From positions 1-64,000 of the forward strand of contig CAXXHA010000028.1 of the NCBI GenBank assembly GCA_963662265.2: a DNA stretch of 64,000 bases, given 5' to 3'. The notes beneath the pieces are model-generated. The model saw only the letters and a list, made by a program, of their open reading frames with translations. It ran no database searches and was not told the DNA's origin. This DNA is from Spirochaetia bacterium (GTDB lineage: Bacteria > Spirochaetota > Spirochaetia > CADAEX01). Positions 1-15,301 of this stretch are shown here, piece after piece. A program made the position numbers and the translations under genes. Within the stretch, counting starts at the first letter, position 1. The number at the start of each line of letters is the position of its first letter.

Positions 1-310
1 AATTCCACTGACCTTTTCCTTTCCCTTTTTCTCCAAGTACAGTAATAAATTTTCCATCAGCAGTAAATTTTGATAAATCAAAAGCTTTTGCTGCAACAAA
101 GATAGTACCATCTGAACTAACAGCAATTGGCTTAGGAGCAGTAAACTGTAAATTAGGACCATCAAATTCGTCCCCTTTTTCCCCCATCATCATTGCAGGC
201 ATTATAACTCCCTGATCAGCTTCAAAGCTTGTAAAATCAGGTGTTCCAGCGCATCCCATTGCTGTCATTACAACAGCTGCTGCAATAAAATAAAATAAAA
301 ACTTTTTCAT
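1..310 (-). CDS. Lipoprotein with probable NHL/beta-propeller repeats (5' part only; runs off left edge)
   Basis: Not in the ORF track. ATG at 310 follows a GGAGG RBS. It reads MKKFLFYFIAAAVVMTAMG-C (lipobox) ...FTAPKPIAVSSDGTIFVA...KFTADGKFITVLGEKGKEKGQW, a typical NHL-repeat pattern. Confidence 0.75.
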   Translation of the reverse strand, partial: MKKFLFYFIAAAVVMTAMGCAGTPDFTSFEADQGVIMPAMMMGEKGDEFDGPNLQFTAPKPIAVSSDGTIFVAAKAFDLSKFTADGKFITVLGEKGKGKGQWN

Positions 311-341
311 CAAATCCTCCTAACAAGATTTTCTTTTATAT

Positions 342-363
342 AACCGGCCCTATAAAGCCGGTT
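342..363. terminator. Intergenic hairpin between ABC ATPase and NHL lipoprotein genes
   Basis: AACCGGC-cctataaa-GCCGGTT inverted repeat; no strong U-tract, so it may be an mRNA-stabilising stem. Confidence 0.4.
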
Positions 364-386
364 TAGAAACTTTTTAATAGGGACCT

Positions 387-1475
387 TTAAAAGATCCTTT
401 TCTCTGTTTCAAGATCAAAGAGATTATATGTTTCACCTTTGACTCCGATCCGGATAGTCTCGCCCGGTTTGACCTTAATGTAATCCGGAGAAACCATTGT
501 AGCTTCATTAACACCATTTTCGAGGTTCAGGATCTGTGCAGGTCCTGTAGGAAGCTGTGTGATTACTCTGAATTCGCCTCCATTACTGTCAAGAATAAAA
601 TCTTCAGGCCTTACAGCAACCTTTACTTTATCTCTCTCTCCTATCAGCTCTGGATCTGTTTTTAATTTGATTCCTGAGAAAGAAACATAGGTCTTTCCAT
701 CTTCCCTGATAACATCACCATCATAGAAATTCATCTTTGGATTACTGATAAAATCTGCTACAAAAAGATCTGCAGGTTTTCTGTAAAGAACTTCCGGAGA
801 ATCCATCTGTCTTATAACACCGTCTTTCATAACGCATATATGGGTAGACATAGTCATTGCCTCTTCCTGGTCATGTGTAACATAAACAGTTGTAGCTCCT
901 GATTCCTGGTGAAGTCTTTTAACTTCACTTCTCATTTCCATTCTGAGCTTTGCATCAAGATTTGAAAGAGGTTCATCCATCAGGAAGATTCCCGGTTTTG
1001 TAATTAACATTCTTGCAATTGCTACTCTCTGCTGCTGTCCCCCGGAAAGCTCATTAGGAAACCTTTCTGCCAGGGAGTTAAGACTCACATTGTTAATTAT
1101 TTCGTCAACCTGATTCTGTATTTCCTCTTTAGGCAGTTTTTTCATTACAAGGCCGAATGCGATGTTGTCATATACTGTCATATGAGGCCAGAGTGCATAT
1201 GACTGAAAAATCAGACCGATACCCCTTTTAACAGGGTCCACTACAATTTCCTCTTTTTTTGAAAATACAACCTGATCATTTATGGAAATCTTTCCTTTTG
1301 TAGGATCTTCAAGTCCTGCGAGCGCCCTGAGAGTAGTTGTTTTCCCGCATCCTGACGGACCCAGGAGTGTTACAAAGCTGCCCTCTTCTATTTCCATTGA
1401 AATATTATCAACTGCCTTTACCTTGCCCCAGGCTTTGGTAAGATTCTCAACTTTGATTTTTACTTTGTTAGCCAT
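387..1475 (-). CDS. ABC transporter ATP-binding subunit (FbpC/AfuC/PotA family)
   Basis: Walker A GPSGCGKTT, LSGGQQQ signature, MDEPLSNLD Walker B/D-loop, C-terminal TOBE-like region. Confidence 0.95.
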   Translation of the reverse strand: MANKVKIKVENLTKAWGKVKAVDNISMEIEEGSFVTLLGPSGCGKTTTLRALAGLEDPTKGKISINDQVVFSKKEEIVVDPVKRGIGLIFQSYALWPHMTVYDNIAFGLVMKKLPKEEIQNQVDEIINNVSLNSLAERFPNELSGGQQQRVAIARMLITKPGIFLMDEPLSNLDAKLRMEMRSEVKRLHQESGATTVYVTHDQEEAMTMSTHICVMKDGVIRQMDSPEVLYRKPADLFVADFISNPKMNFYDGDVIREDGKTYVSFSGIKLKTDPELIGERDKVKVAVRPEDFILDSNGGEFRVITQLPTGPAQILNLENGVNEATMVSPDYIKVKPGETIRIGVKGETYNLFDLETEKRIF

Positions 1476-1477
1476 AA

Positions 1478-3334
1478 TTATTCTGCAACTCCTTTAGCCA
1501 AATCTTTTCCCTGAAACTTTTTAATTAGTAATGTTCCGCCCATACTTAAAATTACAAGAAGCATGGTTATTGCATCACCGTACTGGTGATACCCCCCCTC
1601 TGTGTATCTGAAAAGCATTGTTGTCAGAACTTTATTTGCAGGGGTTACAATCAGAACGATAAGAGATAATTCTCTCATTGTTGAAATAAATGACAGTAAA
1701 AAGCCTGATACAAAACCGCTTTTTGTCAGCGGATATATAAGCTTTTTAAACTTGGTCCAGAAACCTGCTCCGAACATGGTTGCAGCTTCTTCAAGAGATT
1801 TATCTATCTGCATCATCGCAGCAGAACCTGTTCTTGAAGAGAAAGGCATTCTCTTTGCCAGAGAAACAAGAACAAGCAGTGTAAATGTTCCATAAAGCGA
1901 AGGAATCGGTCCTATCCTTTGAGAAAACATACTCAGGTAAACTGCCCCGAACGCAATACCCGGGAAAATATACGGTGCAAAAGAAAGGACATCACAACCA
2001 ACAGAAAGTTTGGTACCCCTTCCCCTTACAATTGCATACCCCAGAAGGATTCCCAGTATTCCGGAAAGAACAGAAACTACCAGTGACAACTTAATAGAAT
2101 TCCAGGCACCTCTGTATATTTCAGGATCTCTTAAAATTCCGGCCTGACCTTCTCCAAGAAGAGTCCCTGATTTGCCCAATGCTCCTGATTCACCTATCCA
2201 GTAATGGAGAGTAAAGTTACTTAACGAATAATCGCCATTTACTTCCATAAATGTCTGCCATGTAAGAATATAAAGAGGAAGAAAAACAGCACAGATAAGG
2301 AAAATCGCAACAAGAACGAAAACAATCCATTTCCATTTCCCCAGATTCATGGGTTTAGATCTAAACCCTTTACCGCTGATTGTAACAAAACTTTTTCTTG
2401 CTCCTATTACTTTAACATTCATATAAATAGTAAGAGATGAAATCAGAATCATTACAATTGCGAGAAGGAATGCATCTCCTGCAAGATTGTTTTTTACATT
2501 TCCGTATATCTGTGTGGAAAGAGTATAAAACCTGACAGGGAGTCCCAGGAAAGCAGGTGTTCCGAAGGTACCAAGCCCCTTAGAAAATGTCAGAATAAAT
2601 GCAGATAATACTGCAGGTAAAACAAGAGGCAGAGTAACTTTTTTCATTACCTGCATTCTTGAAGCTCCAAGCAGGGCAGCTGTTTCTTCAAGCTGAGAAT
2701 CAATAGATGCTAACGCGCCTGAAACTGTAATAAAAGCAAAAGCGTAATAATGAAGAGACAGACATATTATAATAGGAATAGGTCCGTATGAAATCCAGTC
2801 GGGTGGAGCAACTTTAAAAAAGTACTGAAACAGTCCGGCTGTTCCCCCGATTTTAGAATTTTTAAACAATGTCAGCCACGCAAGTGCTATAGGCCACGAG
2901 GGAATGATATATGGAATCATTGCCACATTTGCAACCATCTTTTTGAAAGGCATATTTGTTCTTACTACCAGATATGCAAGTATACAGCCTATAAGCATAG
3001 ACAATACTGTCAGACCCAATGTTACAACTGCTGAATTAAACAGAGGAATAAGAAACATTTTCTTTGTCAGTTTACTTAAAAAAACCCTTTCAAAATGGAT
3101 CCAGGTAAAATGCCCCGGAACAACCTTAACTCCTCTATCAATAACTTCAGGAAGCCTTCTGTCAGAAAGAGAAAAGGAAAAACTTGTCAAAATCAGATTT
3201 ATAGCCGGCATAAGCACAAAAAAGACTAGAAGAGCCAGCAATATTATTCCGATAATTCTTTCCGGCTTGGAAAGCTCCCGGAGGGTTCTACGCATAAGAG
3301 GATTTCCGGGTTTAAAAGATACAGAACTACTCAT
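1478..3334 (-). CDS. ABC transporter permease, duplicated (FbpB/AfuB type)
   Basis: About 12 hydrophobic segments and two EAA loops (LEETAALLGAS; LEEAATMFGAG). Confidence 0.93.
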   Translation of the reverse strand: MSSSVSFKPGNPLMRRTLRELSKPERIIGIILLALLVFFVLMPAINLILTSFSFSLSDRRLPEVIDRGVKVVPGHFTWIHFERVFLSKLTKKMFLIPLFNSAVVTLGLTVLSMLIGCILAYLVVRTNMPFKKMVANVAMIPYIIPSWPIALAWLTLFKNSKIGGTAGLFQYFFKVAPPDWISYGPIPIIICLSLHYYAFAFITVSGALASIDSQLEETAALLGASRMQVMKKVTLPLVLPAVLSAFILTFSKGLGTFGTPAFLGLPVRFYTLSTQIYGNVKNNLAGDAFLLAIVMILISSLTIYMNVKVIGARKSFVTISGKGFRSKPMNLGKWKWIVFVLVAIFLICAVFLPLYILTWQTFMEVNGDYSLSNFTLHYWIGESGALGKSGTLLGEGQAGILRDPEIYRGAWNSIKLSLVVSVLSGILGILLGYAIVRGRGTKLSVGCDVLSFAPYIFPGIAFGAVYLSMFSQRIGPIPSLYGTFTLLVLVSLAKRMPFSSRTGSAAMMQIDKSLEEAATMFGAGFWTKFKKLIYPLTKSGFVSGFLLSFISTMRELSLIVLIVTPANKVLTTMLFRYTEGGYHQYGDAITMLLVILSMGGTLLIKKFQGKDLAKGVAE

Positions 3335-3354
3335 TAAAAAAACTCCAGTAAAAT

Positions 3355-4476
3355 TTATTTTCCAGCACTAAGTAAGTCGCTGCCTGCGAAATCTGCCCAG
3401 TCATATATTGTGAATTTTGATGCATCACCGTCATGACCAACTACAACCCCGTGTGGGAAACCGGGAAGCGGCGATGAATTCGCATCAACCCCGTCATCAT
3501 CATAGAGAACTTCTCCATCTGAATTCAGATGTATAACAGTTTTAACCAGTTCGTTAGTTACCCTGTCATATAATCTGAGAATCGAATATGTATCAGGCCC
3601 TTCACCCTGATCAACAACAATAATATAACCCTGTCCGTTACCCGCATCATAAAGAGCAAGCCCTTCTCGGTCTCTTCTATATCCGTCAGAAGGAGGCGCT
3701 ATTATTGAAACTGCTTTTGTGTCAGCATCAGGAGATGCCAGATATTTATAGACGCCTTTAGCATCTTCTGTTTCCTCGGAAACATAATAAAATCCAAGTT
3801 CATCATCACAGACCATACCTTCAATTTTATAATTTCCGTTAAAAGGAATATCTCTTACAGGTTTTACAGTTACAGCATTTCCTGCCGAATTACTTTCAAT
3901 CTGATACTGTCTGATTATTTCAGACGGTTCACCATTAGGAGATTCAAAACAGTACATCTTTCCTGTATCCTTATCTTTATAAAGAGTAAATCCGTAAGCA
4001 TCTTTCTGAAAATCATTTCCTTCAGACTTTCCGTCGCATAAAACAGTAAGAACATCTTTCCCCGATGTATAATCAGGATTTATCGCATAACATGCAAGCT
4101 TGCTGCCGCCCTTGTACTTAACCTTTCTGAGATTAAGTGCAACTATATCTACGTTCTTACCGGCTAGATCAAAACCGTATCTCACATCAATATTTCCCGG
4201 TTTTCCCCAAGGTGAAAAATGAGTAAGCTCCTTTCCATCCATTGTCCAGATCCAGACTCCTTCAAGCTTATCTACTCCGAATATAAGGCTTTTTGAGGGA
4301 TCTGTCGGATGAACCCATATAGCAGGATCATCTGCAGCTCCTGCAAGGGATTTTACTCCGGTCCGACCTGTTGTAATAACAGGTTTAACTTTTGGATATT
4401 TTGATAAATCTTCTGCCCAGGCAGAAAAAGCTATAACTGCTATAAAAAGAACTGCAGTTAATTTTTTGATATTCAC
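3355..4476 (-). CDS. phy: Secreted beta-propeller phytase (3-phytase, Bacillus PhyC family)
   Basis: Signal peptide ending AWA. Family motifs AADDPAIWVHPTDPSKSLIFG, NIDVRYGF, IEGMVCDDELG, DREGLALY, GFPHG. GTG start with AAGGAGG RBS. Confidence 0.88.
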   Translation of the reverse strand: MNIKKLTAVLFIAVIAFSAWAEDLSKYPKVKPVITTGRTGVKSLAGAADDPAIWVHPTDPSKSLIFGVDKLEGVWIWTMDGKELTHFSPWGKPGNIDVRYGFDLAGKNVDIVALNLRKVKYKGGSKLACYAINPDYTSGKDVLTVLCDGKSEGNDFQKDAYGFTLYKDKDTGKMYCFESPNGEPSEIIRQYQIESNSAGNAVTVKPVRDIPFNGNYKIEGMVCDDELGFYYVSEETEDAKGVYKYLASPDADTKAVSIIAPPSDGYRRDREGLALYDAGNGQGYIIVVDQGEGPDTYSILRLYDRVTNELVKTVIHLNSDGEVLYDDDGVDANSSPLPGFPHGVVVGHDGDASKFTIYDWADFAGSDLLSAGK

Positions 4477-4572
4477 AAAATCCTCCTTAGTAATTTTATA
4501 AATTTTTTAAAAAAACCAGACCTTTTTTAATTATTAAAACAGGGTTACTTTAAAAATGATTAACCCCGAATA

Positions 4573-5343
4573 TTAAACTTGCCCTGTTTTCACTGCCAGT
4601 AAATTTGATACAATATCCGGAAGCTCAAGCAAACTGCTTATAAGATATTCAGGTTCCGCATCGGAACAGATATCACTTGATGAATTAAAGTCATATGTTA
4701 TCTGAACTGCTCCAAGAAATCCGGCACTATGCGCACCCTTAATATCTTTCAGCGGGCTGTTTCCAACATAAAGGCATTCTTCCGGTTTTACACCTGCACA
4801 TTCTGCAGCATATGTAAATATAGAAGGATGGGGCTTCACCCGCCCAAAATCAGCAGAAGTAATAACCGGTGCAAAATATTTTTCAAGATCATATCTTTTC
4901 AGGTCCCGCGGGACCTGAGCAGAGCTTAAGACATTACTGATTATTCCCATTTTTAATCCGAAACTGTTCAATGTTTCCAAAGCTTGAGCAGCTTCAGGCC
5001 GCACAGTTCTGGAATGGAATCCTGCTTCAATAAGATAGGTAAGTTCACTGATAACAGAATCGCCGAGAAGCTCTTTTTTAGGTTCATCATAAAGGATGTA
5101 ATTTTTCCAAACATCCATCTCTGAAAGCTCTATAAGAGTTTCATATTTCCATTTTCTATAATCATTATTTTTAGTTCTTATGTGATTATAGAAATCCTCA
5201 CTGCTGTATTTATCCCGGAGGTCCAATCCGTTTTCGGCAAGAACATCAAGCATTTTTGAAGAAGCCTCAATACAATCTTCTAAAACTGTCGGATAAAGAT
5301 CCAGCGTCCCGCCGAAATCAAAAAATAATGCTTTTAAAGCCAT
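4573..5343 (-). CDS. HAD-superfamily hydrolase (subfamily IA)
   Basis: Motif I FFDFGGTL, motif II ISN, motif III KPHP, motif IV VGNSPLKDIKGA. Confidence 0.9.
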   Translation of the reverse strand: MALKALFFDFGGTLDLYPTVLEDCIEASSKMLDVLAENGLDLRDKYSSEDFYNHIRTKNNDYRKWKYETLIELSEMDVWKNYILYDEPKKELLGDSVISELTYLIEAGFHSRTVRPEAAQALETLNSFGLKMGIISNVLSSAQVPRDLKRYDLEKYFAPVITSADFGRVKPHPSIFTYAAECAGVKPEECLYVGNSPLKDIKGAHSAGFLGAVQITYDFNSSSDICSDAEPEYLISSLLELPDIVSNLLAVKTGQV

Positions 5344-5373
5344 AACATACCTCCGGGCAAATAAATCTTTAAT

Positions 5374-6561
5374 CTACTGATGCTGAATCCAGAAATCCCT
5401 GAACCTCATAACATTTAAATAGAGCCATTCAGCATCTTCTGACCATAATTTAAGTTCAGAAAGTTTTTTCTGTCCCTTAACTGGCGGAAGATCAGTTCTT
5501 GTCGGCCATGTTCCAGGTACATTATATGGAGCAAAACCGTTTCCGGCTTTTTCATCACCATACATCCATTTGATATAAAGTTTTGCAGCATTCGGATTTT
5601 TTGCGTGAACAGGTATACCTATAGCACTCTGAGTCATAAACATGTTAAAAGGTTCAATATCCCAGATAGGTTCAACGTAAAGAGTCTGTTCATCTTTAAG
5701 CTTAAGTTTTGATGGGCCGGTTATTCCTACAGGTGGTTTTTCCTGGCCAGGCATACCAACAGAAATAACAACATCATCTCCGCCTTTTGTAAGTACGATG
5801 TTATTTTCAAGCAGTCTTTTAATAAATTCATATCCTGCATTTTCACATCCTTCGCTTAAGACAATATCTTCACCGAATTCTGCCTTATAACCTTCTGCCA
5901 TTACATCTGAATATCGAAGAAACATTGCCATAAGGTTAATATCAGAACCGCCGAGCATAGGGTCTTTCATTATAAGACGGCCTTTCCATTCAGGTCTTGT
6001 AAGATCCCACCATGAATCGATTGGACTGCCGTTTGGATAAACTTCTGTATTATAGATAACACATTTTCCGCCGAGTTTAAGAATTGCAAGCTGTTCATCT
6101 TTATAAGCATCAGCTGTAACATCCTGAATCTCATTCGGGATATATTTAAAGATTTTGTCGTAATCAACAAATTCCTTGTAAAGTGTTGCAATCCCGGAAG
6201 TCTGGATAACATCTACATCATAAACGCCGGATGCCTGAAGCCGTGTAAGCTTTTCAAACATATCGCCGGTACCGATATCATTAGGAACAGCCTTAATCCC
6301 GTATTCATCATAAAAACTTCTGCAGCATTCATATACTTTTGATGAGTTTGAATAAACTACAAGAGTTCCTTCCTCTTTTGCAGCTTTTTCTATTGCATCC
6401 CAGTCTTCTTCTGCAGGTGCATATTTATCAAGCTGTGCGCTTTTAAGCCATGCATCAAGATCATTCCCAGCTTCTGCAGCAGAAGCAGCTTCTTTCTCGC
6501 CTCCTGCAAAAAGTGACGCTGAAAAAACAACCAGCATTAAAAGGAAAAATAATTTTCTCAT
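5374..6561 (-). CDS. ABC transporter substrate-binding protein (Fe3+/sugar-phosphate/2-AEP class)
   Basis: Spirochaete-style leader LFAGGEKE; AAKEEGTLVVYS, SWWDLTRPEWKG and NPNAAKLYIKW motifs. Confidence 0.88.
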   Translation of the reverse strand: MRKLFFLLMLVVFSASLFAGGEKEAASAAEAGNDLDAWLKSAQLDKYAPAEEDWDAIEKAAKEEGTLVVYSNSSKVYECCRSFYDEYGIKAVPNDIGTGDMFEKLTRLQASGVYDVDVIQTSGIATLYKEFVDYDKIFKYIPNEIQDVTADAYKDEQLAILKLGGKCVIYNTEVYPNGSPIDSWWDLTRPEWKGRLIMKDPMLGGSDINLMAMFLRYSDVMAEGYKAEFGEDIVLSEGCENAGYEFIKRLLENNIVLTKGGDDVVISVGMPGQEKPPVGITGPSKLKLKDEQTLYVEPIWDIEPFNMFMTQSAIGIPVHAKNPNAAKLYIKWMYGDEKAGNGFAPYNVPGTWPTRTDLPPVKGQKKLSELKLWSEDAEWLYLNVMRFRDFWIQHQ

Positions 6562-6652
6562 AAAAACCTCTCGTGAAAATATTTTTTATATTTTATTATA
6601 TGCCCGCGGATTCGCTCTGTAAAGAATTATTTCTTTCTTTTTGTTAATTTTT

Positions 6653-6668
6653 TGAAAATTTTCTTTCA
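6653..6668. promoter_or_regulatory. Candidate RpiR operator 1
   Basis: TGAAAATTTTCTTTCA pseudo-palindrome upstream of the SBP gene; 18/21 identical to the site at 7856 when the trailing TTTTT is included. Confidence 0.45.
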
Positions 6669-6851
6669 TTTTTGGCAATTAAGAGAAAATCAATATTAAA
6701 AATCATGAAAACTCTAACAGTATTTTGAAAGCTGATTATTAAAAATGATTGTAAGCGTACAGGAACGGCCTCTTTTGAAGCACCTCTTTGAGACTTATAT
6801 ATTCAAGTTGAGATATAATTTTTTTTCAGAAATATTATCAAACTTAAATAA

Positions 6852-7760
6852 TCATGAATTTTCATCTTCATCGACAATTTCATTTTCTTTTTTATAAGGA
6901 ACATAGGCATCTGCCATACCACGGTAATAACCTCTTCTCAGGGAACCGACTCTTGAAGTAAACTCCACTGCAGAATCACCGATAACCTCTGCTATACTGA
7001 GAATTAAAGCACTTGTAAAAGCGAAAGGAACAGTCAATGTATGATAATTATCCAGAGGTCCTCTGTTGACCGTGATTACCTGATCCACAGCTTTTACGAG
7101 ATCAAGCTTTTTGTTGTCTGTGATTAAAAAAATATTTGAATCAACTGTCTGTAGTGCATTTGTCAGACAGGAATAATCTGGAGACACTTTTAAAAAATGA
7201 TAAATAATTACAAGATCTTTATTACCAATAAAAGGAATTTCCTCCATCATGTTGATACCGGAATATGGTATTTCTCTGACTTTTTTTCCAAAACGGGATA
7301 GACGGAAACCAAGATAACTGACAAGAGATTCATTGCCTCTTCCCAGACTGAAAAGATATACTGTTTCAGCTTTACAGATAGAATCAACAAATTTCCAGAA
7401 AAGATCATGATTAACAGAGTCTATTGTATCTTCAATCATTTTAAGTTCATGACGCATTACCTTCTCAAAAGAAAAGTCTCCGCCTGCAAGAATCTGAATT
7501 GAATTTTTAAGCCGTTCACCGGGGGTAAGAAAATTCTGATAGTAGTGAACCAGGTCTTTTTTAAGTTCAGGGAACCCTTTATACCCTAAATTTTGTGAAA
7601 ACCGGACAATGGTTGCTTCACTTATCTCCAGGGCTGTTGCAAGTTTTGTTATGGAAAAGAAAATAACTTCATTAATATTTGAGACAATATAATCTGCAAT
7701 TTTTTTCTGCTGCTTCGGCAGAGTATCATAACTTGAAAGTATTTTTTTATAACAATTCAT
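6852..7760 (-). CDS. MurR/RpiR-family transcriptional regulator (HTH + SIS)
   Basis: SITKLA..ISEATIVRFSQNLGYKGFPELK is the RpiR HTH, followed by a SIS domain. The ATG at 7760 has a GGAG RBS and is preferred over 7790. Confidence 0.92.
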   Translation of the reverse strand: MNCYKKILSSYDTLPKQQKKIADYIVSNINEVIFFSITKLATALEISEATIVRFSQNLGYKGFPELKKDLVHYYQNFLTPGERLKNSIQILAGGDFSFEKVMRHELKMIEDTIDSVNHDLFWKFVDSICKAETVYLFSLGRGNESLVSYLGFRLSRFGKKVREIPYSGINMMEEIPFIGNKDLVIIYHFLKVSPDYSCLTNALQTVDSNIFLITDNKKLDLVKAVDQVITVNRGPLDNYHTLTVPFAFTSALILSIAEVIGDSAVEFTSRVGSLRRGYYRGMADAYVPYKKENEIVDEDENS

Positions 7761-7855
7761 TTTCTTCTCCAATAATCCTGAAAATAACATAAATTTTCTT
7801 TTTTATTAATATAAGCATATAAAAACAAATTAAGTATATCAAAATTATTCATTTA

Positions 7856-7871
7856 TGCAAATATTATTTCA
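7856..7871. promoter_or_regulatory. Candidate RpiR operator 2
   Basis: TGCAAATATTATTTCA in the divergent region between the regulator and the TIM-barrel gene. Confidence 0.45.
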
Positions 7872-7937
7872 TTTTTACACCAAAAAGGATGACTTTTTGA
7901 AAGTTTTATTGCATATTGTAAAGAGAGGACTTAAAAA

Positions 7938-8801
7938 ATGAAAATTGGTATATCACTGCCCTGGGCTTATCTTGCAGATATATATGACAGAGATAAAGCC
8001 AGCGAAACAATCTACAGAGACTGCGGAGAACCCCGGATATTTCTCGAAACATTGAAAAATCAGGGGTGCACTTCTGTTGAAATGAGACATTGGAATAAGG
8101 ACCTGACAGATAATGATATGACAAAAGCATTTGAAAATATAACAAATGCCGGACTTTCATTTTCCATACATGGAGATATAGATGAAAGTCATGTAGATAA
8201 AAATTTATATGATGCCTTTCCATGGTTTTCATCTGCTTTAAACGGGTTAAAAAAATCTCCGCAGAAAGAATTTATAATAACAATGCATCCTGTTAAAAAA
8301 ATCGACGGGAATAATGAACAGCTAAAATCACTATCAGAATCCATTCTAAAACATTACTGCATGGAAATCGAAAAAAACACACTGCCGATTAAAATTGCCT
8401 ACGAGAATCAGAGAGAAAAAGGATTCACTGATCCGGCAACGAAATTCACATCGATTTCTGCCTCTTTATCACTTATCAAAAGAAAAGAGATAGGTACATG
8501 CTGGGACATGGGACACAGTTATGCAAATTTCCTGAAAAACAAGTATGAAGAACTGCCAGATGATCTGTTTCTGGAAAATGCAATTCATACCCATATTCAT
8601 GACCTTGCAGAAAAAACAGGAGCAACTCACTGGCCTCTGATATTCGGAAACACTCCTGTAGAAAAATATATTGGAATTCTTAAAAAACACGGATACAGCG
8701 GTCTATATAATCTTGAACTGAGTACTGAAAGATTCCGCAATCTTAATGTAAAAAAAAGTATGCTGGAAAGTATTGATATTTTAAAAGGAATTCTAAAATG
8801 A
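7938..8801 (+). CDS. Sugar-phosphate isomerase/epimerase, xylose-isomerase-like TIM barrel (AP_endonuc_2)
   Basis: Metal-binding motifs IAYEN, CWDMGH, HTHIHD and YNLE. Confidence 0.85.
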   Translation: MKIGISLPWAYLADIYDRDKASETIYRDCGEPRIFLETLKNQGCTSVEMRHWNKDLTDNDMTKAFENITNAGLSFSIHGDIDESHVDKNLYDAFPWFSSALNGLKKSPQKEFIITMHPVKKIDGNNEQLKSLSESILKHYCMEIEKNTLPIKIAYENQREKGFTDPATKFTSISASLSLIKRKEIGTCWDMGHSYANFLKNKYEELPDDLFLENAIHTHIHDLAEKTGATHWPLIFGNTPVEKYIGILKKHGYSGLYNLELSTERFRNLNVKKSMLESIDILKGILK

Positions 8802-9544
8802 ATGAAGAAGTTAGACTAATAGCACTTGATATTGACGGTGTAATTTCCAGAGGAATGAAATCAAATTTTAATTATACAATCCTGAATATTCTGGCCAATA
8901 TTAATGTGAGAGCTAATAAAAACCCTGAATATCCGGCAGTAACTGTAATAACAGGCCGTCCGCAGCCTTATATTGAAGCTCTTCTTCAGGTAATTAAAGG
9001 CTTTGTCCCTGCAGTTTTTGAACAGGGGACCGGGTTTTATGACCCTGCTTCATATACAGTAGAAAAAAACCCCGAGCTCAAGAATACAGAAGCTTTTTAT
9101 GAAATGAGACAGAGCATTTTGAAGGAGATTCTTCCCAAAAACAGTTCTGTTTCCATACAGCCGGGAAAAGAATATACAATAAGCATATACAGCAGCAATA
9201 TAGATATTCATAATAATCTAAAAGAAATGATTCTTGAATTAAACAAAGAGTGGAATAGGGATTTTGATTTTATTTATTCTTCAAACTGTCTCAATATAAT
9301 CCCGAAAGGATTTCACAAGGGAAATGGAATTACACTTCTTTCTGATAAAACCGGAGTTCCCCTTGAAAATATACTTGGTGTAGGGGATTCAGATGTAGAT
9401 GTGCCTTTTCTTGAAAAGACAGGTTTCAGCGCTTCACCTGCAAACGGATCAGATAAAATAAAGAAGACTGCAAATTATATTTCATCAAGATATTATCATG
9501 ACGGCCTTTTCGAGATACTTGACCACTTCTCTCTGCTGCCATAA
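8798..9544 (+). CDS. HAD-superfamily phosphatase (IIB, Cof/SPP-like)
   Basis: DIDGVI, TGRP, KGNG and VGDSDVD motifs; start overlaps the upstream stop (translational coupling). Confidence 0.88.
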   Translation: MNEEVRLIALDIDGVISRGMKSNFNYTILNILANINVRANKNPEYPAVTVITGRPQPYIEALLQVIKGFVPAVFEQGTGFYDPASYTVEKNPELKNTEAFYEMRQSILKEILPKNSSVSIQPGKEYTISIYSSNIDIHNNLKEMILELNKEWNRDFDFIYSSNCLNIIPKGFHKGNGITLLSDKTGVPLENILGVGDSDVDVPFLEKTGFSASPANGSDKIKKTANYISSRYYHDGLFEILDHFSLLP

Positions 9545-9555
9545 TTTTTTAATAA

Positions 9556-9594
9556 AGACTTTCAGGGAGTTAATTAAATAATCCCTGGAAGTCT
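9556..9594. terminator. Probable bidirectional terminator between convergent genes
   Basis: AGACTTTCAGGGA...TCCCTGGAAGTCT inverted repeat. Confidence 0.6.
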
Positions 9595-9641
9595 ATAATA
9601 ATTAAAACCTTACTTAAAAAGATAAAAATTTCAGCTTAAAA

Positions 9642-10535
9642 TCAGAGCACAATCTCCATACCGTCATAACCGACCTCTATTCCGGATGGACCCAGAAGTC
9701 TTTCAAGTACATCGGGAGTGAAGTTTTTATGCCCGATATGAGAGACAATCATTCTTCCTTCAGGAAAATCATCTCTAAGCGCAAGCACGCTGTTAACATC
9801 CCCGTGCCCGCTTTCTAAATTACCTTCCCCGTAAGTGCAGTCTATGACAATGCAGTCAGGCCTGTTTTCCCTGAGAAATGAATATGTTTTTTCAGGCAGT
9901 ATTTCTGCTGCATCAACAAGATAGTACAGGTTTTTTCCGTTTTCCGAGAAACAGAAACCAAGAGTTTCCTCGCTGCATGAAGAGGGATCCCCGGATTTCA
10001 CTTTCAGATGATTTGTTTCAAGCGGAACAACCCTGCAGCTTCCAATATTTATTTCCTCCAGCTCCCCGATTTCCGTGAAATTAAAAACACCTTCAAGCTG
10101 TTTCAGTTTTTCAGGATCTGTCAGCGACTGGAATTTACTGTAAAGATATTTCCCTGTCACATTGCCGTGATATATATTAACAGGCACATCAATCACAGCA
10201 CCTTTCGACTTTTTAACAGAAAAAAGATGGAAAAGGCCAAGAAGATGATCATCATGACTGTGAGTAAGAAAAAGATGGCTGATATCAAGGTCATTGATAC
10301 CTGCTTCTTCAAGCTGACTCATGAACTGGGGCGGAGTATCTATGAGAAATTTATTACCATCAGATACTGTAACAACAGCACTGCTGTTTTTTCTTCTGTG
10401 TTTTTTCACACCGGATTTACGCGCCTGGCTGCAGACTGTGCAGCTGCATCTGAATGCAGGTATGTTCTGACTTGCGCCTGTTCCTGTCAGGATTATTTTC
10501 ATACTTCCTCCTGAAGAAGAAAATATCACAGACAA
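9642..10535 (-). CDS. PhnP-like metallo-beta-lactamase-fold phosphodiesterase
   Basis: GTGAS..P...CSCTVC Zn motif, THSHDDH, IDCT, H, SHIGH. The true start is probably MKIILTG at about 10502. Confidence 0.85.
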   Translation of the reverse strand: MSVIFSSSGGSMKIILTGTGASQNIPAFRCSCTVCSQARKSGVKKHRRKNSSAVVTVSDGNKFLIDTPPQFMSQLEEAGINDLDISHLFLTHSHDDHLLGLFHLFSVKKSKGAVIDVPVNIYHGNVTGKYLYSKFQSLTDPEKLKQLEGVFNFTEIGELEEINIGSCRVVPLETNHLKVKSGDPSSCSEETLGFCFSENGKNLYYLVDAAEILPEKTYSFLRENRPDCIVIDCTYGEGNLESGHGDVNSVLALRDDFPEGRMIVSHIGHKNFTPDVLERLLGPSGIEVGYDGMEIVL

Positions 10536-11628: not shown

Positions 11629-12432
11629 TTAATTTGTGTATTTTTCGAGAACAGCGGCCAGGCCGCTTTCTGTATTGGGAGGAGCAATTATATCAGCAAG
11701 ATTTTTGAGTTTTTCATGGCCATTTTCCATGGCAACACCCAAACCTGCAAATTCAACCATCTCAAGGTCATTGAGGTTATCTCCTATACAGATAATTTCC
11801 TCAACAGGAATATCCAGATATTCAGACAGAACAGAAACAGCCTCCCCCTTGTTTACCCCTTTCGGCAGTATTTCAAGGTACTCCTCTTCCGACTGTACAA
11901 ATACAGGATAGTCTTTGCAGAAATTGTTATAAACTTCCCTGAATTTCGGAAAACAGCTGTTGTCGCCGATAAGAAGTATTTTAGTGACAGCTGATAAATC
12001 AATATCTGAGTAGTTATCAACTGTTTCAAGCTTTATTCCGTCTTTGGCAGAATATATTTCTGCAGTCCGGTTAATATCCCTGACAAAAGCCCTGCCTTTT
12101 GAATAAAAAACAGGAGTAACAGGATATTTATCAACTATTGAGGCAGCAGTTTTTGCCTGCTCTGCTGTAAGAAGTTTTTCATAAATAACACTGCTGCTGT
12201 TTATATCAACAACTTTTGCCCCGTTATAAAGAATAACAGGGGCATTAATAGAAAGTTCGTCATGATATTTTTTTACAGCCTCTTCAATTCTTCCTGTGGC
12301 AAGTGAAAAAACACCTCCCCTCTCCTGGAATTCCTTTATGGCTTTTTTATTGACCTCTGATATTTTCTGGCAGTCATCAACAAGAGTGCCGTCTATATCA
12401 GAGATCATCATCCTATATTTCTTCATCTGCAA
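11629..12432 (-). CDS. Cof-type HAD-IIB phosphatase
   Basis: SDIDGTL, LATGR, NGA, LEILPKGVNKG and IGDNLNDLEM motifs. Confidence 0.93.
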   Translation of the reverse strand: MQMKKYRMMISDIDGTLVDDCQKISEVNKKAIKEFQERGGVFSLATGRIEEAVKKYHDELSINAPVILYNGAKVVDINSSSVIYEKLLTAEQAKTAASIVDKYPVTPVFYSKGRAFVRDINRTAEIYSAKDGIKLETVDNYSDIDLSAVTKILLIGDNSCFPKFREVYNNFCKDYPVFVQSEEEYLEILPKGVNKGEAVSVLSEYLDIPVEEIICIGDNLNDLEMVEFAGLGVAMENGHEKLKNLADIIAPPNTESGLAAVLEKYTN

Positions 12433-13540
12433 GAATTCTCAAGCTGTTGAGATCAAAATTAATCCCGACTTCACTGCCTGGTGAGTATATTTTAATCTCC
12501 TGTGGACAGTATGCCTCAACCCTGAGAAGATTTCCGTTGAATTTAACATCATACTGAACAAAGTTGCCGTAGAATACAGCTTTTTCAATTCTTCCGGAGA
12601 AAAGCCCCTCACCCGGTTCTGTAACCTTTATATATTCAGGTCTCATTACAGCAACAGCATTTCCGCTGATTTCTGAAATATGTTTGCCGGGATTCGGTAC
12701 TTTTACAGTTTTTCCGACAATTTCAACTGCTGCATCTGACAGGCTGCTGCTGATTATTTTACAGTCAATAAAGTTTGATTTACCGATAAAATCCGCCACA
12801 AATTTTGACTCAGGATCTTCATAGAGATCTTTTGGAGAACCGACCTGCATGATTTTTCCCTTGTTCATCAGGACAACTTTGTCGGAAATTGCCATAGCTT
12901 CAGACTGGTCATGAGTTACATAGAGACTTGTAATACCGAGTCTCTTCTGGAGGCTCCTGAGCTCATCTCTCATATACTCTCTCAGTTTCGCATCAAGGTT
13001 TGAAAGAGGTTCATCAAAAAGAAGTACCTTGGGCTCGATAACAACAGCTCTCGCAAGCGCAACTCTCTGCTGCTGACCGCCGGAAATCTGAGAGGGAAGT
13101 CTTTTTTCCATTCCCTTGATCTGCATAAGTTCAATAATCTGCTCAGTTCTTTCCCTGATTTCCGTTGCAGGAAGTTTCTGAATTTTAAGGCCGTATGCAA
13201 TATTATCATAAACACTCATGTGAGGAAAAAGCGCATAGCTCTGAAACATCATTGCCATATCCCTCTTATTCGGAGGAACTGATTCAATTGATTCATTTCC
13301 AAGGAGAAGCTGACCTGAAGTTATACTTTCAAAACCGGCAACCATTCTTAGTGTTGTAGTTTTTCCGCAGCCTGACGGGCCAAGCATTGTTGTGAGTTCT
13401 CCTGATTTGATATCAAGATTTATTTTATCAACAGCTGTAAATTCGCCGCTGCCGTCAAGGCTCATAAATGTTTTTGTTATATCTACAAGCTTGAGGCCGC
13501 TTGAATGAGCCCCGAGCTTTTCTTCAATATTGGTATTCAT
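12413..13540 (-). CDS. ABC transporter ATP-binding subunit (AfuC/FbpC family)
   Basis: GPSGCGKTT, ISGGQQQ and FDEPLSNLD motifs. Confidence 0.95.
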   Translation of the reverse strand: MNTNIEEKLGAHSSGLKLVDITKTFMSLDGSGEFTAVDKINLDIKSGELTTMLGPSGCGKTTTLRMVAGFESITSGQLLLGNESIESVPPNKRDMAMMFQSYALFPHMSVYDNIAYGLKIQKLPATEIRERTEQIIELMQIKGMEKRLPSQISGGQQQRVALARAVVIEPKVLLFDEPLSNLDAKLREYMRDELRSLQKRLGITSLYVTHDQSEAMAISDKVVLMNKGKIMQVGSPKDLYEDPESKFVADFIGKSNFIDCKIISSSLSDAAVEIVGKTVKVPNPGKHISEISGNAVAVMRPEYIKVTEPGEGLFSGRIEKAVFYGNFVQYDVKFNGNLLRVEAYCPQEIKIYSPGSEVGINFDLNSLRILADEEI

Positions 13541-13552
13541 TATTAGTACCCC

Positions 13553-15229
13553 CTATTTGACAGATTTCATTCTGTCGAGTCTGTTAACCAGTTTGTTTAG
13601 AATAAAAATTGCTGTCATGATTACTGCAATCATTACAACGATATATGCTGCCGCATCACTGTACTGGCTCACTTCGAAGAGTGAGAAAATTCTTGTTGTA
13701 ACAACATTCCATCTTGCAGAAATAAGGAATATGATCGCACTTACAGCTGTCATTGATTTTACAAATGAATATACAAGTCCTGAAAAGAATGCCCCTTTTA
13801 TGAGAGGAAGAGTAACATCCTTGAAAGTCTGAAAACTGTTTGCACCGAGAGAAGTTGAGGCCTCTTCTATTGAAGGATCAATCTGCATGAGAGCGGAAAT
13901 ACCTCCCTCAATCCCTACAGGAATATTTCTGAAAACAAATACAATTACAAGAATTGCTGCAGTGCCTGTAAGGAGAAAAGGCTTGTCATTAAAGGCAAGA
14001 ATATAACTGATACCTACAACAGTTCCGGGAAGAGCAAATGTTAAAAGAGATGCAAGGCTCATATATTTTTTTCCTGGGAATTCTTTTCTTACTGTAAGGA
14101 AAGCAATTGTCATTCCAAGAAGTCCCGCTATTGGAGTTGCAAAAGCTGCAAGCATTACTGCATTTTTCAGAGGTTTCCATCCGATAGAAAATACATACTT
14201 GAAGTGATCAAGGGAAATTGAGCTGTCAACACCCCAGACTTTTACAAAAGCTCCGCAGAGTACAGTACCGTAAAACAGAATAATAACTGCACAGAAGAAA
14301 AGACAGACTGCAAAAAGAGGATAAACTATAGACTTCTCACTCAGTTTTTCCCTTGTCTGTGAGGGTTTTCCTGTTACAGTTACAAAACTCTTGCCGCTGA
14401 TCCAGTATTTCTGAAGCAGAAATGCACAGAGACTGGGAAGAAGCAGCATAACAGAAAGAATTGCACCGGTTTTAAGGTCATACATACCTGTAATTACACG
14501 GTATGCTTCAACACCCAGAGTAGGGAATCCTCCCCCGATTACTGCAGGATTACTGAAATCCTGAAGAGACTGTATAAAAACAAGAAGCAGAGCACTTATA
14601 ATTCCCGGAAGGGAAAGAGGAAGTGTTACTGTCTTGAATATTTTCCATCTTGATGCGCCGAGATTAAGAGCAGCATCCTCAACAGAGGAATCTATTGCTT
14701 CAAGAATACCTGAGAGAGTAAGAAATGCTACCGGGAAAAAAGACATAACCTGAACAAGTATCAGGCTGTGAAGACCGTAAACATTGAAATCTGTAATACC
14801 GAAAAGTCCGTTTGTAATGAGACCTTTTCTTCCGAAAAGAAAAATTATTGAAAGAGAAAGAACAAACGGCGGAGATATAATTGGCAGAGTTGCCATTGTT
14901 TTAAAAAAAGGTTTCCAGGGAATTGCTGTCCTGGTAATTGCAAATGCATAAATATATCCGACAATAGTTCCAAGAACAGCAGTAATTATTCCGAGCTTGA
15001 TGCTGTTCCAGAATGTAATTCTGTAACTGCTGTTTGCAAAAGTTTTCAAAAGTACTGATAACGAAAATTTTCCCTCTTCTGTTGTCAGACTGAAATAAAA
15101 CATCTTGAAAAACGGATATATAACAAAAATTGTCAGTGAAGCAAGTATCATCAGAATAAGAGTCATGAGAAGAGGCTCTTTTCTGATCATACTCAGTTTC
15201 CACATGAGATCTTTATATTTTTTAGCCAT
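13553..15229 (-). CDS. ABC transporter permease (AfuB/FbpB type)
   Basis: Two EAA loops (VEDAALNLGAS; IEEASTSLGAN) and about 12 TM segments. Confidence 0.93.
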   Translation of the reverse strand: MAKKYKDLMWKLSMIRKEPLLMTLILMILASLTIFVIYPFFKMFYFSLTTEEGKFSLSVLLKTFANSSYRITFWNSIKLGIITAVLGTIVGYIYAFAITRTAIPWKPFFKTMATLPIISPPFVLSLSIIFLFGRKGLITNGLFGITDFNVYGLHSLILVQVMSFFPVAFLTLSGILEAIDSSVEDAALNLGASRWKIFKTVTLPLSLPGIISALLLVFIQSLQDFSNPAVIGGGFPTLGVEAYRVITGMYDLKTGAILSVMLLLPSLCAFLLQKYWISGKSFVTVTGKPSQTREKLSEKSIVYPLFAVCLFFCAVIILFYGTVLCGAFVKVWGVDSSISLDHFKYVFSIGWKPLKNAVMLAAFATPIAGLLGMTIAFLTVRKEFPGKKYMSLASLLTFALPGTVVGISYILAFNDKPFLLTGTAAILVIVFVFRNIPVGIEGGISALMQIDPSIEEASTSLGANSFQTFKDVTLPLIKGAFFSGLVYSFVKSMTAVSAIIFLISARWNVVTTRIFSLFEVSQYSDAAAYIVVMIAVIMTAIFILNKLVNRLDRMKSVK

Positions 15230-15262
15230 ATTATGTTTCCTGTGATCAGATCTATTCAGTTG

Positions 15263-15288
15263 AAAAAGGCAGCCGGGACCGGCTGCCT
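15263..15288 (-). terminator. Intrinsic terminator or stabilising hairpin after the SBP gene
   Basis: AGGCAGCCG-ggac-CGGCTGCCT, followed by a U-run on the minus strand. Confidence 0.7.
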
Positions 15289-15301
15289 CTGAATATTTGT
15301 A

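What the first reader, a model, noticed from the sequence alone, without database searches (positions are those of the whole stretch)
1..10535. Candidate phytate/inositol-phosphate uptake and catabolism system built on an Afu/Fbp-type ABC transporter
Seen: one minus-strand run of RpiR, SBP, HAD phosphatase, secreted beta-propeller phytase, permease, ATPase and an NHL lipoprotein. A TIM-barrel + HAD pair is divergent from it and a PhnP-like phosphodiesterase lies next door. The phytase sits between the transporter subunits. Known: beta-propeller phytases remove alternate phosphates from Ca-phytate and stop at InsP3. Transporters of the AfuABC class can carry sugar phosphates although usually annotated as iron transporters. 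IolE and IolI belong to the same TIM-barrel superfamily. Inference: the phytase trims InsP6 outside the cytoplasm, the ABC system imports lower inositol phosphates, and cytoplasmic HADs finish dephosphorylation under a phosphosugar-sensing RpiR. I know of no description of this arrangement in spirochaetes, but I could not search.
Basis: partly seen in the sequence, partly recalled or inferred. Interest (0 to 1): 0.78.

Follow-up and report, generated by a model that had tools for sequence, protein, structure and literature searches.

The report
Phytase-linked inositol-phosphate uptake operon
A free-living spirochaete carries a secreted phytase gene wedged between the parts of a nutrient importer, an arrangement that most likely lets it strip phosphate from phytate outside the cell, import the leftover inositol phosphates and burn the inositol.

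Summary
On the minus strand lie RpiR, a solute-binding protein (SBP), a HAD-IA protein, a signal-peptide beta-propeller phytase (BPP), a fused permease, an ATPase and the start of an NHL lipoprotein. The window begins at a contig end that cuts the NHL gene.

The phytase keeps all 46 columns that are at least 85% conserved over 120 BPPs. SBP-phytase-permease linkage occurs in all 10 loci of one spirochaete phytase clade. It occurs in none of the other BPP loci fetched (0 of 78 and 0 of 76).

Independent support: in another spirochaete genus a separate clade of the same importer family sits in an iolD-iolG operon. There it is flanked by an unrelated secreted phytase, a MINPP. The window's genome has a canonical iolB-D-E-G cluster.

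Corrections:
- The SBP is Afu/Fbp-like only in fold; the true AfuA ortholog is the neighbouring system at 11629-17613.
- The TIM barrel is not IolE. It has a His-rich, endonuclease-IV-like metal pattern.
- The embedded HAD-IA lacks the second Asp of motif I.
- In complete relatives the operon continues with 2-3 phosphohexomutase paralogs, more HADs and a PfkB kinase, which nobody's model explains.

Verdict: probable inositol-phosphate importer (about 0.65). No substrate was tested.

The parts
2..313 (-). N-terminal 104 residues of a periplasmic NHL-repeat lipoprotein, last gene visible in the operon; cut by the contig start
   Evidence: The lipobox ..TAMGC is seen in the translation. The fragment is 77% identical to the first 102 residues of the 330-aa ortholog in G409. 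That ortholog has NHL/DUF5128 hits and a weak PF13449 'Phytase-like' hit. An ortholog follows the ATPase in 4 of 4 related loci that have downstream sequence.
387..1475 (-). ABC ATPase (MalK/UgpC-like, with a C-terminal regulatory domain)
   Evidence: ABC_tran 127 bits. The best NCBIfam hit is UgpC at 347 bits, below the cut-off of 432.
1478..3334 (-). Fused double permease, 618 aa
   Evidence: Two BPD_transp_1 stretches. It is 66-90% identical in the phytase-linked loci.
3355..4476 (-). Secreted beta-propeller phytase, 373 aa
   Evidence: PF02333 153.9 bits. E 4e-37 to 3amr over residues 42-351. All 46 columns that are at least 85% conserved across 120 BPPs are kept, one as V->I. The N-terminus reads as a signal peptide. 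It is the only phytase homolog in the genome.
4573..5343 (-). HAD-IA family protein with atypical motifs (motif I DFGGT, motif IV GNSxxxD)
   Evidence: Pfam Hydrolase/HAD_2. The motifs were read from an alignment of 10 homologs. The same DxGG(T/V) subfamily accompanies this importer family in other genomes.
5374..6561 (-). Solute-binding protein of the importer (cluster-D fold), 395 aa, with a signal peptide
   Evidence: SBP_bac_1/11. AlphaFold2 model with pLDDT 92.4. Nearest folds are MctA, the G6P-binding VcA0625, FbpA, AfuA and P5PA at 13-19% identity. The phytase-linked SBPs form one clade (SH-aLRT 98, quick tree).
6595..6623 (-). Best sigma-70-like promoter match, upstream of the SBP gene
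   Evidence: TTTACA-17-TATAAT, 11 of 12. This is a consensus match only.
6852..7790 (-). RpiR/MurR-family regulator
   Evidence: HTH_6 78.6 bits; SIS 18.6 bits, below its cut-off. Orthologs lie in the syntenic position in G409, G408, G411, L095 and L096.
7938..8801 (+). Clade-specific TIM barrel (AP_endonuc_2 superfamily), probable metal-dependent phosphoesterase
   Evidence: AP_endonuc_2 43 bits. Weak CbiR phosphodiesterase hit at 1.4e-5. Invariant H78 H117 E156 D190 H193 H219 H221 H231 E260, with D222 at 90% or more, over 16 sequences. Model pLDDT 95.9. The top Foldseek hit is the ASFV endonuclease-IV-type AP endonuclease, followed by ketose 3-epimerases. The IolE model does not match it.
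8798..9544 (+). HAD-IIB phosphatase with canonical DIDGV motif, translationally coupled to the TIM gene
   Evidence: Hydrolase_3 62 bits. Motif read. Syntenic in G409, G408 and G411.
9642..10535 (-). PhnP-like MBL-fold hydrolase (neighbour; membership of the system uncertain)
   Evidence: Lactamase_B_2. PhnP model 119 bits against a cut-off of 272. Syntenic within the family. Not found in L007 by tblastn.
11629..17613 (-). Adjacent true AfuABC-type hexose-phosphate importer: Cof HAD 11629-12432, ATPase 12413-13540, fused permease 13553-15229, AfuA-like SBP 15302-16330, LacI regulator 16585-17613
   Evidence: The SBP matches VcA0625 (named a G6P-binding protein in the fold-search listing) at E 6e-76 and AfuA 4r72 at 1.6e-72. 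Pfam hits. The permease and ATPase are syntenic in G409 and G408.

Best explanation
This is a phytate / inositol-phosphate acquisition operon.

Proposed mechanism:
1. A Ca-dependent beta-propeller phytase is exported to the periplasm and removes part of the phosphates of phytate (InsP6).
2. A dedicated ABC importer takes up the remaining lower inositol phosphate(s). The importer consists of a cluster-D binding protein, a fused permease and an ATPase.
3. Cytoplasmic phospho-transfer enzymes encoded around the importer release the last phosphates. These are HAD-IIB, atypical HAD-IA proteins, an endonuclease-IV-like TIM-barrel phosphoesterase and, in complete relatives, PMM/PGM paralogs and a PfkB kinase.
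4. myo-Inositol then enters the canonical iol pathway encoded elsewhere in the genome.
5. An RpiR-family regulator controls the operon.

Shown here: gene content, intact phytase motifs, conserved linkage, the independent MINPP/iol linkage of the same importer family, and the presence of iol genes.

Inferred: the transported species, the order and specificity of the cytoplasmic steps, and the regulator's effector.
For: 1. The phytase is a full-length BPP. PF02333 scores 153.9 bits and it matches solved Bacillus BPPs at E 4e-37. All 46 family-conserved columns are kept. Among them are D49 D50 K70 R117 E219 D224 E235 D269 E271 D328, which equal Bacillus rugosus D54 D55 K75 R121 E210 D215 E226 D257 E259 D313. 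It has a signal peptide.

2. Linkage is conserved. Ten loci hold phytases of this clade (about 45-85% identical to the window's): the window, L091, L092, L093, L007, L008 and L094, L095, L096, L101. All 10 have importer parts adjacent. Of the remaining BPP loci fetched, 0 of 78 (genome contigs) and 0 of 76 (metagenome contigs) do. In addition, 16 contig lengths are shared between the SBP hit list and the phytase hit list, including adjacent locus tags DRP70_04745 and DRP70_04750.

3. Non-homologous replacement. In G250 one strand carries iolD (906 bits, cut-off 715), iolG (479.5 bits, cut-off 355), an EEP-family protein, a HAD-IA (DxGGT), permease, ATPase, four tandem SBPs of this family and a signal-peptide MINPP. 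The MINPP matches the chain deposited as 'putative multiple inositol polyphosphate histidine phosphatase 1' (4fdt) at E 7e-36 and carries RHGSRN and HAE motifs. All 3 of 3 MINPP-bearing genomes of that family sample show SBP-MINPP adjacency. BPP-linked and MINPP-linked SBPs are separate clades (SH-aLRT 98 and 100, quick tree).

4. The importer family keeps company with phosphatases. In G000, 5 of 7 paralogous loci have a phosphatase or mutase neighbour: BPP+HADs, HAD-IA, His_Phos_1 plus a HAD-IIB/PMM-like protein, IMPase, and PGM+HAD.

5. G000 has iolB, iolD, iolE and iolG side by side at C35:60.6-65.5 kb, all above their curated cut-offs. IolD is found in 4 of 4 phytase-bearing genomes of the order and in 2 of 16 others. 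These genomes are kin and not independent.

6. The SBP fold class holds binders of anionic ligands: metal-citrate, hexose phosphates, PLP, phosphonate and Fe3+. AfuA as a sugar-phosphate binder comes from the PMC4546632 abstract and P5PA from the PMC8427247 abstract.

7. RpiR-family regulators do control inositol catabolism in Caulobacter (PMC2597717, passage read).
Against: No ligand binding, transport or enzyme activity was measured.

The 39 positions conserved in phytase-linked SBPs and different in paralogs include only one Lys (K248) and one His (H394). Those that align with probed MctA ligand residues are N72, S122 and G204-G205-S206. The mature protein has a net charge of about -19. That is not what a simple 'basic pocket for a polyphosphate' predicts, although phosphate-binding proteins often use backbone amides and Ser/Thr (recalled).

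The embedded HAD-IA and its paralogs lack the D+2 general acid/base.

The phytase-linked loci carry 2-3 PMM/PGM-type phosphohexomutases with intact TASHNP and DGDxDR motifs, plus a PfkB kinase. The sister orphan SBP (C12) lies beside a PGM and a beta-PGM-like HAD. This points towards hexose phosphates.

How phytate crosses the outer membrane is unknown.

The phytase is rare. It was found in 0 of 400 other genomes of the phylum sample and in 3 of 19 others in the order.
Confidence: 0.65

Rival explanations
1. The importer carries hexose or other sugar phosphates, like AfuABC. The PMM/PGM paralogs, PfkB kinase, HADs and RpiR process these. The phytase is merely co-regulated as a second phosphorus-scavenging device and does not feed the transporter.
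For: There are 2-3 PMM/PGM paralogs with intact catalytic motifs in 4 of 4 phytase-linked loci that have enough flank. A PfkB kinase follows them. The sister SBP lies beside PGM and a beta-PGM-like HAD. RpiR regulators classically sense phosphosugars (recalled). The SBP-specific residues are small and polar plus Trp/Tyr, as in sugar binders.
Against: A bona fide AfuA ortholog with its own permease, ATPase, Cof phosphatase and LacI regulator already sits next door. The phytase is inserted between SBP and permease in all 10 clade loci, down to 48-50% identity. A separate clade of the same family is embedded in an iolD-iolG operon with a MINPP.
Confidence: 0.17
2. The importer carries free myo-inositol or another uncharged cyclitol. 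Complete dephosphorylation happens in the periplasm, by the phytase plus the NHL lipoprotein or other phosphatases.
For: The G250 and G456 members lie in or next to iol genes. The phytase-linked-specific pocket candidates are non-basic, with conserved Trp/Tyr. The NHL lipoprotein has a weak PF13449 'Phytase-like' hit.
Against: Cytoplasmic phosphatase-family genes accompany the importer in most loci. The solved relatives of this fold class that are listed bind anions. BPPs are reported to stop at InsP3 (recalled, not checked in a paper here).
Confidence: 0.1
3. It is a ferric-iron (Fbp/Sfu/Yfu-type) transporter, as automatic annotation says. Phytate hydrolysis would serve to free chelated iron.
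For: One source names 13 of the 120 listed homologs 'iron(III) transport system substrate-binding protein'. The weak sequence hits are to YfuA and other Fe3+ binders at E about 1e-3. Phytate is a strong iron chelator (recalled).
Against: Identity to solved Fe3+ binders is only 13-17%. MctA, G6P-binding, AfuA and P5PA proteins score as well or better. Every conserved neighbour is a phospho-sugar-type enzyme or regulator, and no iron-related gene was seen. The Fe3+ ligand residues were not examined.
Confidence: 0.03

Closest known systems
AfuABC hexose/heptose-phosphate importer of Actinobacillus and its relatives (VcA0625, P5PA)
   Same: It is an ABC importer that automatic annotation calls an iron transporter, yet it carries organophosphates (abstracts of PMC4546632 and PMC8427247). 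It has a cluster-D SBP fold, a fused double permease and a single ATPase.
   Different: The window's SBP is about 75 aa longer than the AfuA chain (395 vs 321). It is only 19% identical to AfuA in the fold alignment, and a profile of the family reaches 4r72 only at E 1.5e-8. The true AfuA ortholog is the neighbouring gene at 15302-16330. No Afu operon is known to me with an embedded secreted phosphatase (recalled).
Bacillus beta-propeller phytase PhyC / TS-Phy (3amr, 1poo, 1h6l)
   Same: Same Pfam family, alignable over the whole propeller, conserved acidic and basic residues kept, secreted.
   Different: The window's phytase is 31% identical to the Bacillus rugosus phytase locus L046 by tblastn. 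It is embedded between transporter genes instead of standing alone. Two Bacillus lysines that I recall as part of the second phosphate site correspond to L71 and E183 here (read from the alignment; their role is recalled, not verified).
Secreted MINPP phytase (chain 4fdt)
   Same: It is a secreted bacterial phytase. A homolog (E 7e-36) is linked to the same importer family in G250, G456 and G465.
   Different: It belongs to a different superfamily (histidine phosphatase branch 2) and is not present in the window. I recall 4fdt as the Bacteroides thetaiotaomicron enzyme, delivered in outer-membrane vesicles and not known to be coupled to an importer.
UgpBAEC glycerol-3-phosphate importer coupled to periplasmic/cytoplasmic phosphodiesterases (recalled)
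   Same: The logic is the same: uptake of an organophosphate ester and cytoplasmic release of phosphate. The ATPase's best model is UgpC.
   Different: The ATPase score is below the UgpC cut-off (347 against 432 bits). The SBP fold class, permease architecture and accessory enzymes all differ.

Membership tests
Beta-propeller phytase (PF02333) | Match to the family model above the curated threshold | tested here: met
   153.9 bits against a cut-off of 21, residues 19-352
Beta-propeller phytase (PF02333) | Family-conserved Ca2+/phosphate-site residues retained | tested here: met
   46 of 46 columns that are at least 85% conserved over 120 sequences are kept, one as V->I. Which residues bind which Ca2+ is recalled, not checked.
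Beta-propeller phytase (PF02333) | Export signal | tested here: met
   N-terminus MNIKKLTAVLFIAVIAFSAWA/ED read. No predictor was run.
Beta-propeller phytase (PF02333) | Ca-dependent hydrolysis of phytate | not testable with these tools
   Needs an enzyme assay.
AfuABC / FbpABC-type importer | Cluster-D SBP fold with a fused double permease | tested here: met
   Foldseek probability 1.00 to MctA, VcA0625, FbpA, AfuA and P5PA. The permease has two BPD_transp_1 stretches.
AfuABC / FbpABC-type importer | Sequence-level orthology to AfuA or to an Fe3+ binder | tested here: not met
   The single sequence gives E 7e-4 at best. The family profile reaches 4r72 at 1.5e-8 over the N-lobe only. The neighbouring SBP reaches 1.6e-72.
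AfuABC / FbpABC-type importer | Fe3+ ligands (Tyr-Tyr, His, Glu) present or absent | not tested
HAD phosphatase | Motif I DxDx(T/V) with the D+2 general acid/base | tested here: not met
   HAD-IA 4573-5343 has DFGGT. The change is conserved in the 8 homologs of 10 whose N-terminus is aligned and in 4 further homologs. HAD-IIB 8798-9544 (DIDGV) and Cof 11629-12432 (DIDGT) do meet the feature.
RpiR/MurR regulator | HTH_6 plus SIS domain | tested here: inconclusive
   HTH_6 78.6 bits; SIS 18.6 bits, below the cut-off of 25.
IolE / IolI (inositol-pathway TIM barrels) | Match to the IolE equivalog model | tested here: not met
   TIGR04379 hits only C35:63430-64293 (412 bits) and weakly C11; nothing in C28. 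IolI (1i60) is only rank 18 of the fold hits.
PhnP (phosphonate pathway phosphodiesterase) | Match above the equivalog cut-off | tested here: not met
   119 bits against 272. No phn genes were seen among the window ORFs scanned up to about 28 kb.

The most novel reading that the evidence does not exclude
The cytoplasmic half of the system may be a new pathway for the alternate-position InsP3 that beta-propeller phytases leave behind. In this reading the 2-3 PMM/PGM-type paralogs act as inositol-phosphate mutases that move phosphates to positions the phosphatases can attack. That activity is not known for this superfamily. The DxGGT HAD-IA proteins and the endonuclease-IV-like TIM barrel would act as position-specific phosphoesterases.

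The PGM paralogs are present in 4 of 4 BPP-linked loci with enough flank. No PGM homolog was found by blastp in the two MINPP-linked loci L207 and L220. This fits a need created by the BPP's particular end product.
Probability: 0.12. Interest if true: 0.85.

Novelty: new variant of a known kind. Interest (0 to 1): 0.62.

Why it matters
Phytate is a major organic phosphorus store in soils, sediments and feeds. Its extracellular hydrolysis is well studied, but I know of no characterised bacterial importer for inositol phosphates (recalled).

None of the literature searches that bear on this returned a description of a phytase embedded in an ABC importer operon. The library covers open-access papers and bioRxiv only.

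The finding supplies concrete candidates:
- an SBP family, with two independent phytase partners;
- an unusual HAD-IA subfamily;
- a clade-specific TIM barrel;
- extra phosphomutases.

Together these make 'how do bacteria take up and finish off phytate products' directly testable. The finding also flags another set of 'iron(III) transporter' annotations that are probably wrong.

Tried and rejected
- The paper PMC2655465, wanted for published BPP motifs, is not held. A search for papers naming the BPP site residues gave nothing relevant. The site-residue roles are therefore recalled only.
- The literature search was badly posed (min_terms 2) and returned irrelevant papers.
- No RNA holder was listed for the window, so no expression check was made and read laying was not used.
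A conservation proxy was used instead.
- The TIM barrel has no sequence match in the PDB. The fold search could not separate endonuclease-IV-like from epimerase-like neighbours.
- The EEP-family protein of G250 has no PDB sequence match.
- The careful tree did not finish, so the quick IQ-TREE result was used.
- Complex prediction was not used, because no protein-protein contact is claimed.
- Inverted repeats in the two intergenic regions are AT-rich and unconvincing as operators.

Full report
**What is there**

The window is the first 64 kb of contig C28 of a 3.77-Mb, 41-contig spirochaete assembly.

On the minus strand:
- RpiR regulator 6852-7790
- SBP 5374-6561
- HAD-IA 4573-5343
- PF02333 phytase 3355-4476
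- fused double permease 1478-3334
- ATPase 387-1475
- the first 104 residues of a lipoprotein at 2-313, whose full-length orthologs carry NHL repeats

Divergent from RpiR are a TIM barrel (7938-8801) and a 4-base-overlapping HAD-IIB (8798-9544). A PhnP-like MBL hydrolase follows at 9642-10535; it scores below the PhnP cut-off. Gaps from SBP to NHL are 2-96 bases. The best promoter-like match of the region lies just upstream of the SBP gene (consensus match only).

**The phytase looks functional**

It aligns with solved Bacillus beta-propeller phytases over residues 42-351 (E 4e-37). In an alignment of 120 family members, including the Bacillus rugosus enzyme from L046, 46 columns are at least 85% conserved. 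The window protein keeps all of them, one as V->I. They include the Asp/Glu/Lys/Arg residues that I recall as the Ca2+ and phosphate ligands; those roles were not verified in a paper. It has a signal peptide and is the only phytase homolog in the genome.

**The linkage is conserved, but only in one clade**

- Genome collection: of 80 BPP loci, only the two spirochaete ones (L007, L008; 50-52% identical phytases) have SBP-phytase-permease in a row. The other 78 have neither SBP nor permease homologs.
- Metagenome collection: of 80 loci, four (L094, L095, L096 and the fragmentary L101) show RpiR, SBP, HAD-IA or permease beside the phytase. The other 76 do not. Many of those loci are short contigs, so absence there is weak evidence.
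- Phylum sample: the phytase was found in 0 of 400 other genomes.
- Order: it was found in 3 of 19 others. All three (G409, G408, G411) are syntenic gene for gene with the window.
- Hit lists: 16 contig lengths recur in both the SBP and the phytase hit lists.

**The operon is longer than the window shows**

In the one-contig genome G409 it continues after the NHL lipoprotein as follows:
- PMM/PGM paralog a
- a second DxGGT HAD-IA
- a 364-aa protein without a Pfam hit, called HAD-IIB/PMM-like by the protein atlas (a lead only)
- PMM/PGM paralog b
- a PfkB kinase
- a chemoreceptor

G408 and G411 add a third PMM/PGM between RpiR and the SBP. L007 has two PMM/PGM, a second TIM barrel and a PRK-family protein.

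In G000 contig C37 ends inside the PfkB gene and C28 begins inside the NHL gene. About 5.5 kb is therefore probably lost in an assembly gap.

The PGM paralogs are 43-44% identical to each other. They keep the TASHNP, DGDxDR and GE..G motifs (one paralog has AELAG) and an RxSxxEP-type phosphate loop. They are closest to Xanthomonas and Pseudomonas PMM/PGM.

**The importer family**

The SBP model is confident (pLDDT 92.4). Its nearest solved folds are:
- the metal-citrate binder MctA
- the glucose-6-phosphate binder VcA0625
- a putative aminoethylphosphonate binder
- Fe3+ binders
- AfuA
- the PLP binder P5PA

All are at 13-19% identity. It is 'Afu/Fbp-type' only at the level of fold. The SBP of the adjacent system (15302-16330) is the real AfuA ortholog (E 1.6e-72 to 4r72 and 6e-76 to 8x1a). 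That system has its own permease, ATPase, Cof phosphatase and LacI regulator.

G000 holds seven loci of the phytase-linked importer family:

| Contig | Content |
|---|---|
| C28 | this operon |
| C10 | SBP-permease-ATPase-RpiR-HAD-IA |
| C37 | RpiR, SBP-permease-ATPase, the unk350 homolog of unk364, His_Phos_1 |
| C3 | permease end-ATPase-IMPase, at a contig start |
| C12 | orphan SBP beside PGM and a beta-PGM-like HAD |
| C35 | importer genes only |
| C29 | importer genes only |

Five of the seven thus carry phosphatase or mutase neighbours.

**Independent support from a second phytase class**

The SBP profile hits 8 of 400 other genomes of the phylum sample. In G250 one strand carries, in order:
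- iolD and iolG, both above their equivalog cut-offs
- an EEP-family protein
- a DxGGT HAD-IA
- permease and ATPase
- four tandem SBPs
- a signal-peptide MINPP-type histidine phytase (E 7e-36 to chain 4fdt; RHGSRN and HAE motifs)

The same arrangement is seen in G456, and its end in G465. That makes 3 of 3 MINPP-bearing genomes among 151 searched.

In a quick maximum-likelihood tree the BPP-linked SBPs (support 98) and the MINPP-linked SBPs (support 100) are separate clades. The orphan C12 type is sister to the BPP-linked clade (midpoint-rooted, careful search unfinished).

Two unrelated phytase families recruited next to two branches of one importer family, one of them inside an inositol catabolic operon, is the strongest argument that the family carries inositol phosphates.

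**Downstream catabolism exists**

G000 has iolB, iolD, iolE and iolG in a row on C35. IolD is present in all four phytase-bearing genomes of the order and in two of the sixteen others. These are related genomes, so this is not a statistical test.

**What does not fit neatly**

- SBP pocket. Positions conserved in the 8 verified phytase-linked SBPs and different in 8 paralogs are mostly Gly, Ser, Asn, Trp, Tyr and Glu, with a single Lys. Three of them (N72, S122, G204-S206) align with MctA residues whose mutants were crystallised, S26, S79 and S164. So they probably line the pocket, and it is not obviously basic. Basic residues invariant across the whole family (K104, K327, R355; nearly so R249, K285) could hold one phosphate common to all paralog ligands. 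That would favour a lowly phosphorylated ligand or a metal-bridged one.
- HAD-IA. The HAD-IA proteins that most faithfully accompany the family lack the second Asp of motif I. The embedded one also has Asn for the first Asp of motif IV.
- TIM barrel. It belongs to a small clade: 16 proteins were found, several on contigs whose lengths recur in the phytase or SBP hit lists. Its invariant H78, H117, E156, D190, H193, H219, H221, H231 and E260, with near-invariant D222, match in order and spacing the nine metal ligands of endonuclease IV as I recall them. Its top fold hit is an endonuclease-IV-type AP endonuclease, but ketose epimerases score nearly as well. I read it as a probable phosphoesterase, not as IolE or IolI.
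- Phosphohexomutases. The multiple PMM/PGM paralogs are unexplained by a simple dephosphorylation model.

**Literature**

I saw the search-listing abstracts of PMC4546632 (AfuABC carries hexose/heptose phosphates) and PMC8427247 (P5PA). I read passages of PMC9414882 (general BPP features) and PMC2597717 (the RpiR-family IolR of Caulobacter).

None returned a description of a phytase embedded in an ABC importer operon, or of a bacterial inositol-phosphate ABC importer. Searches asked other questions, and one search was badly posed. The library lacks most subscription journals, so this is not proof that no such description is in print.

**Verdict**

It needs correction in its family assignments, and it is incomplete on the cytoplasmic side.

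Noticed in passing
window 11629-17613 (-): A complete AfuABC-type system with LacI regulator and Cof-type HAD. Its SBP (15302-16330) matches the G6P-binding VcA0625 and AfuA at E 1e-72 to 1e-76. It is probably a hexose-phosphate importer that automatic annotation would call an iron transporter. Its permease and ATPase keep their position next to the phytase operon in G409 and G408.
   Followed up: partly
G000 contigs C10, C37, C35, C29, C12, C3 (loci L001-L006): Six further loci of the same SBP / fused-permease / ATPase family lie in one genome. Their partner enzymes differ: HAD-IA, His_Phos_1, IMPase, and PGM with a beta-PGM-like HAD. This suggests a diversified set of organophosphate importers.
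   Followed up: partly
G000 C37 end (about 59435-60139) and window 1-313: Contig C37 ends inside a PfkB gene and C28 starts inside the NHL gene. In G409 these two genes are about 5.5 kb apart, with PGM, HAD-IA, unk364 and PGM between them. No close copies of those genes were found elsewhere in the G000 assembly, so they probably fall in an assembly gap.
   Followed up: partly
L207 (G250:C1:2503001-2523000), L220 (G456): Four tandem paralogous SBPs serve one permease/ATPase in an iolD-iolG operon that also holds a secreted MINPP and a cytoplasmic EEP-family protein. The four may divide up different inositol phosphate isomers.
   Followed up: partly
window 10677-11369 (-): A 230-aa ORF without any Pfam or NCBIfam hit lies between the PhnP-like gene and the Afu-type system. 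It is conserved in position in G409 (64%), G408 (53%) and G411 (40%).
   Followed up: no
L002:4330-5382 (G000 C37), L091:17552-18646, L007:5612-6649: A family of proteins of about 350 aa without a Pfam hit (56-60% identical to each other) accompanies both the phytase-linked locus and the His_Phos_1-linked paralog locus. The protein atlas places it near HAD-IIB / eukaryotic-type PMM clusters (score 0.95; a lead only).
   Followed up: partly
L206 (G250:C1:171001-191000): A phytase-less locus: SBP-permease-ATPase-RpiR-HAD-IA(DxGGT)-TIM-PfkB. The TIM is 37% identical to the window's and the PfkB 58% identical to G409's. The TIM, HAD-IA, PfkB and RpiR set is therefore a recurring module of this importer family, independent of the phytase.
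   Followed up: no
window 24400-25818 (-): An MGH1-like / GH63-type glycoside hydrolase (mannosylglycerate-hydrolase-like). It appears unrelated to the operon.
   Followed up: no
L184:3052-5244 (G409): A methyl-accepting chemotaxis protein directly follows the PfkB gene at the end of the extended phytase operon. It could be a chemoreceptor for the same substrate class.
   Followed up: no
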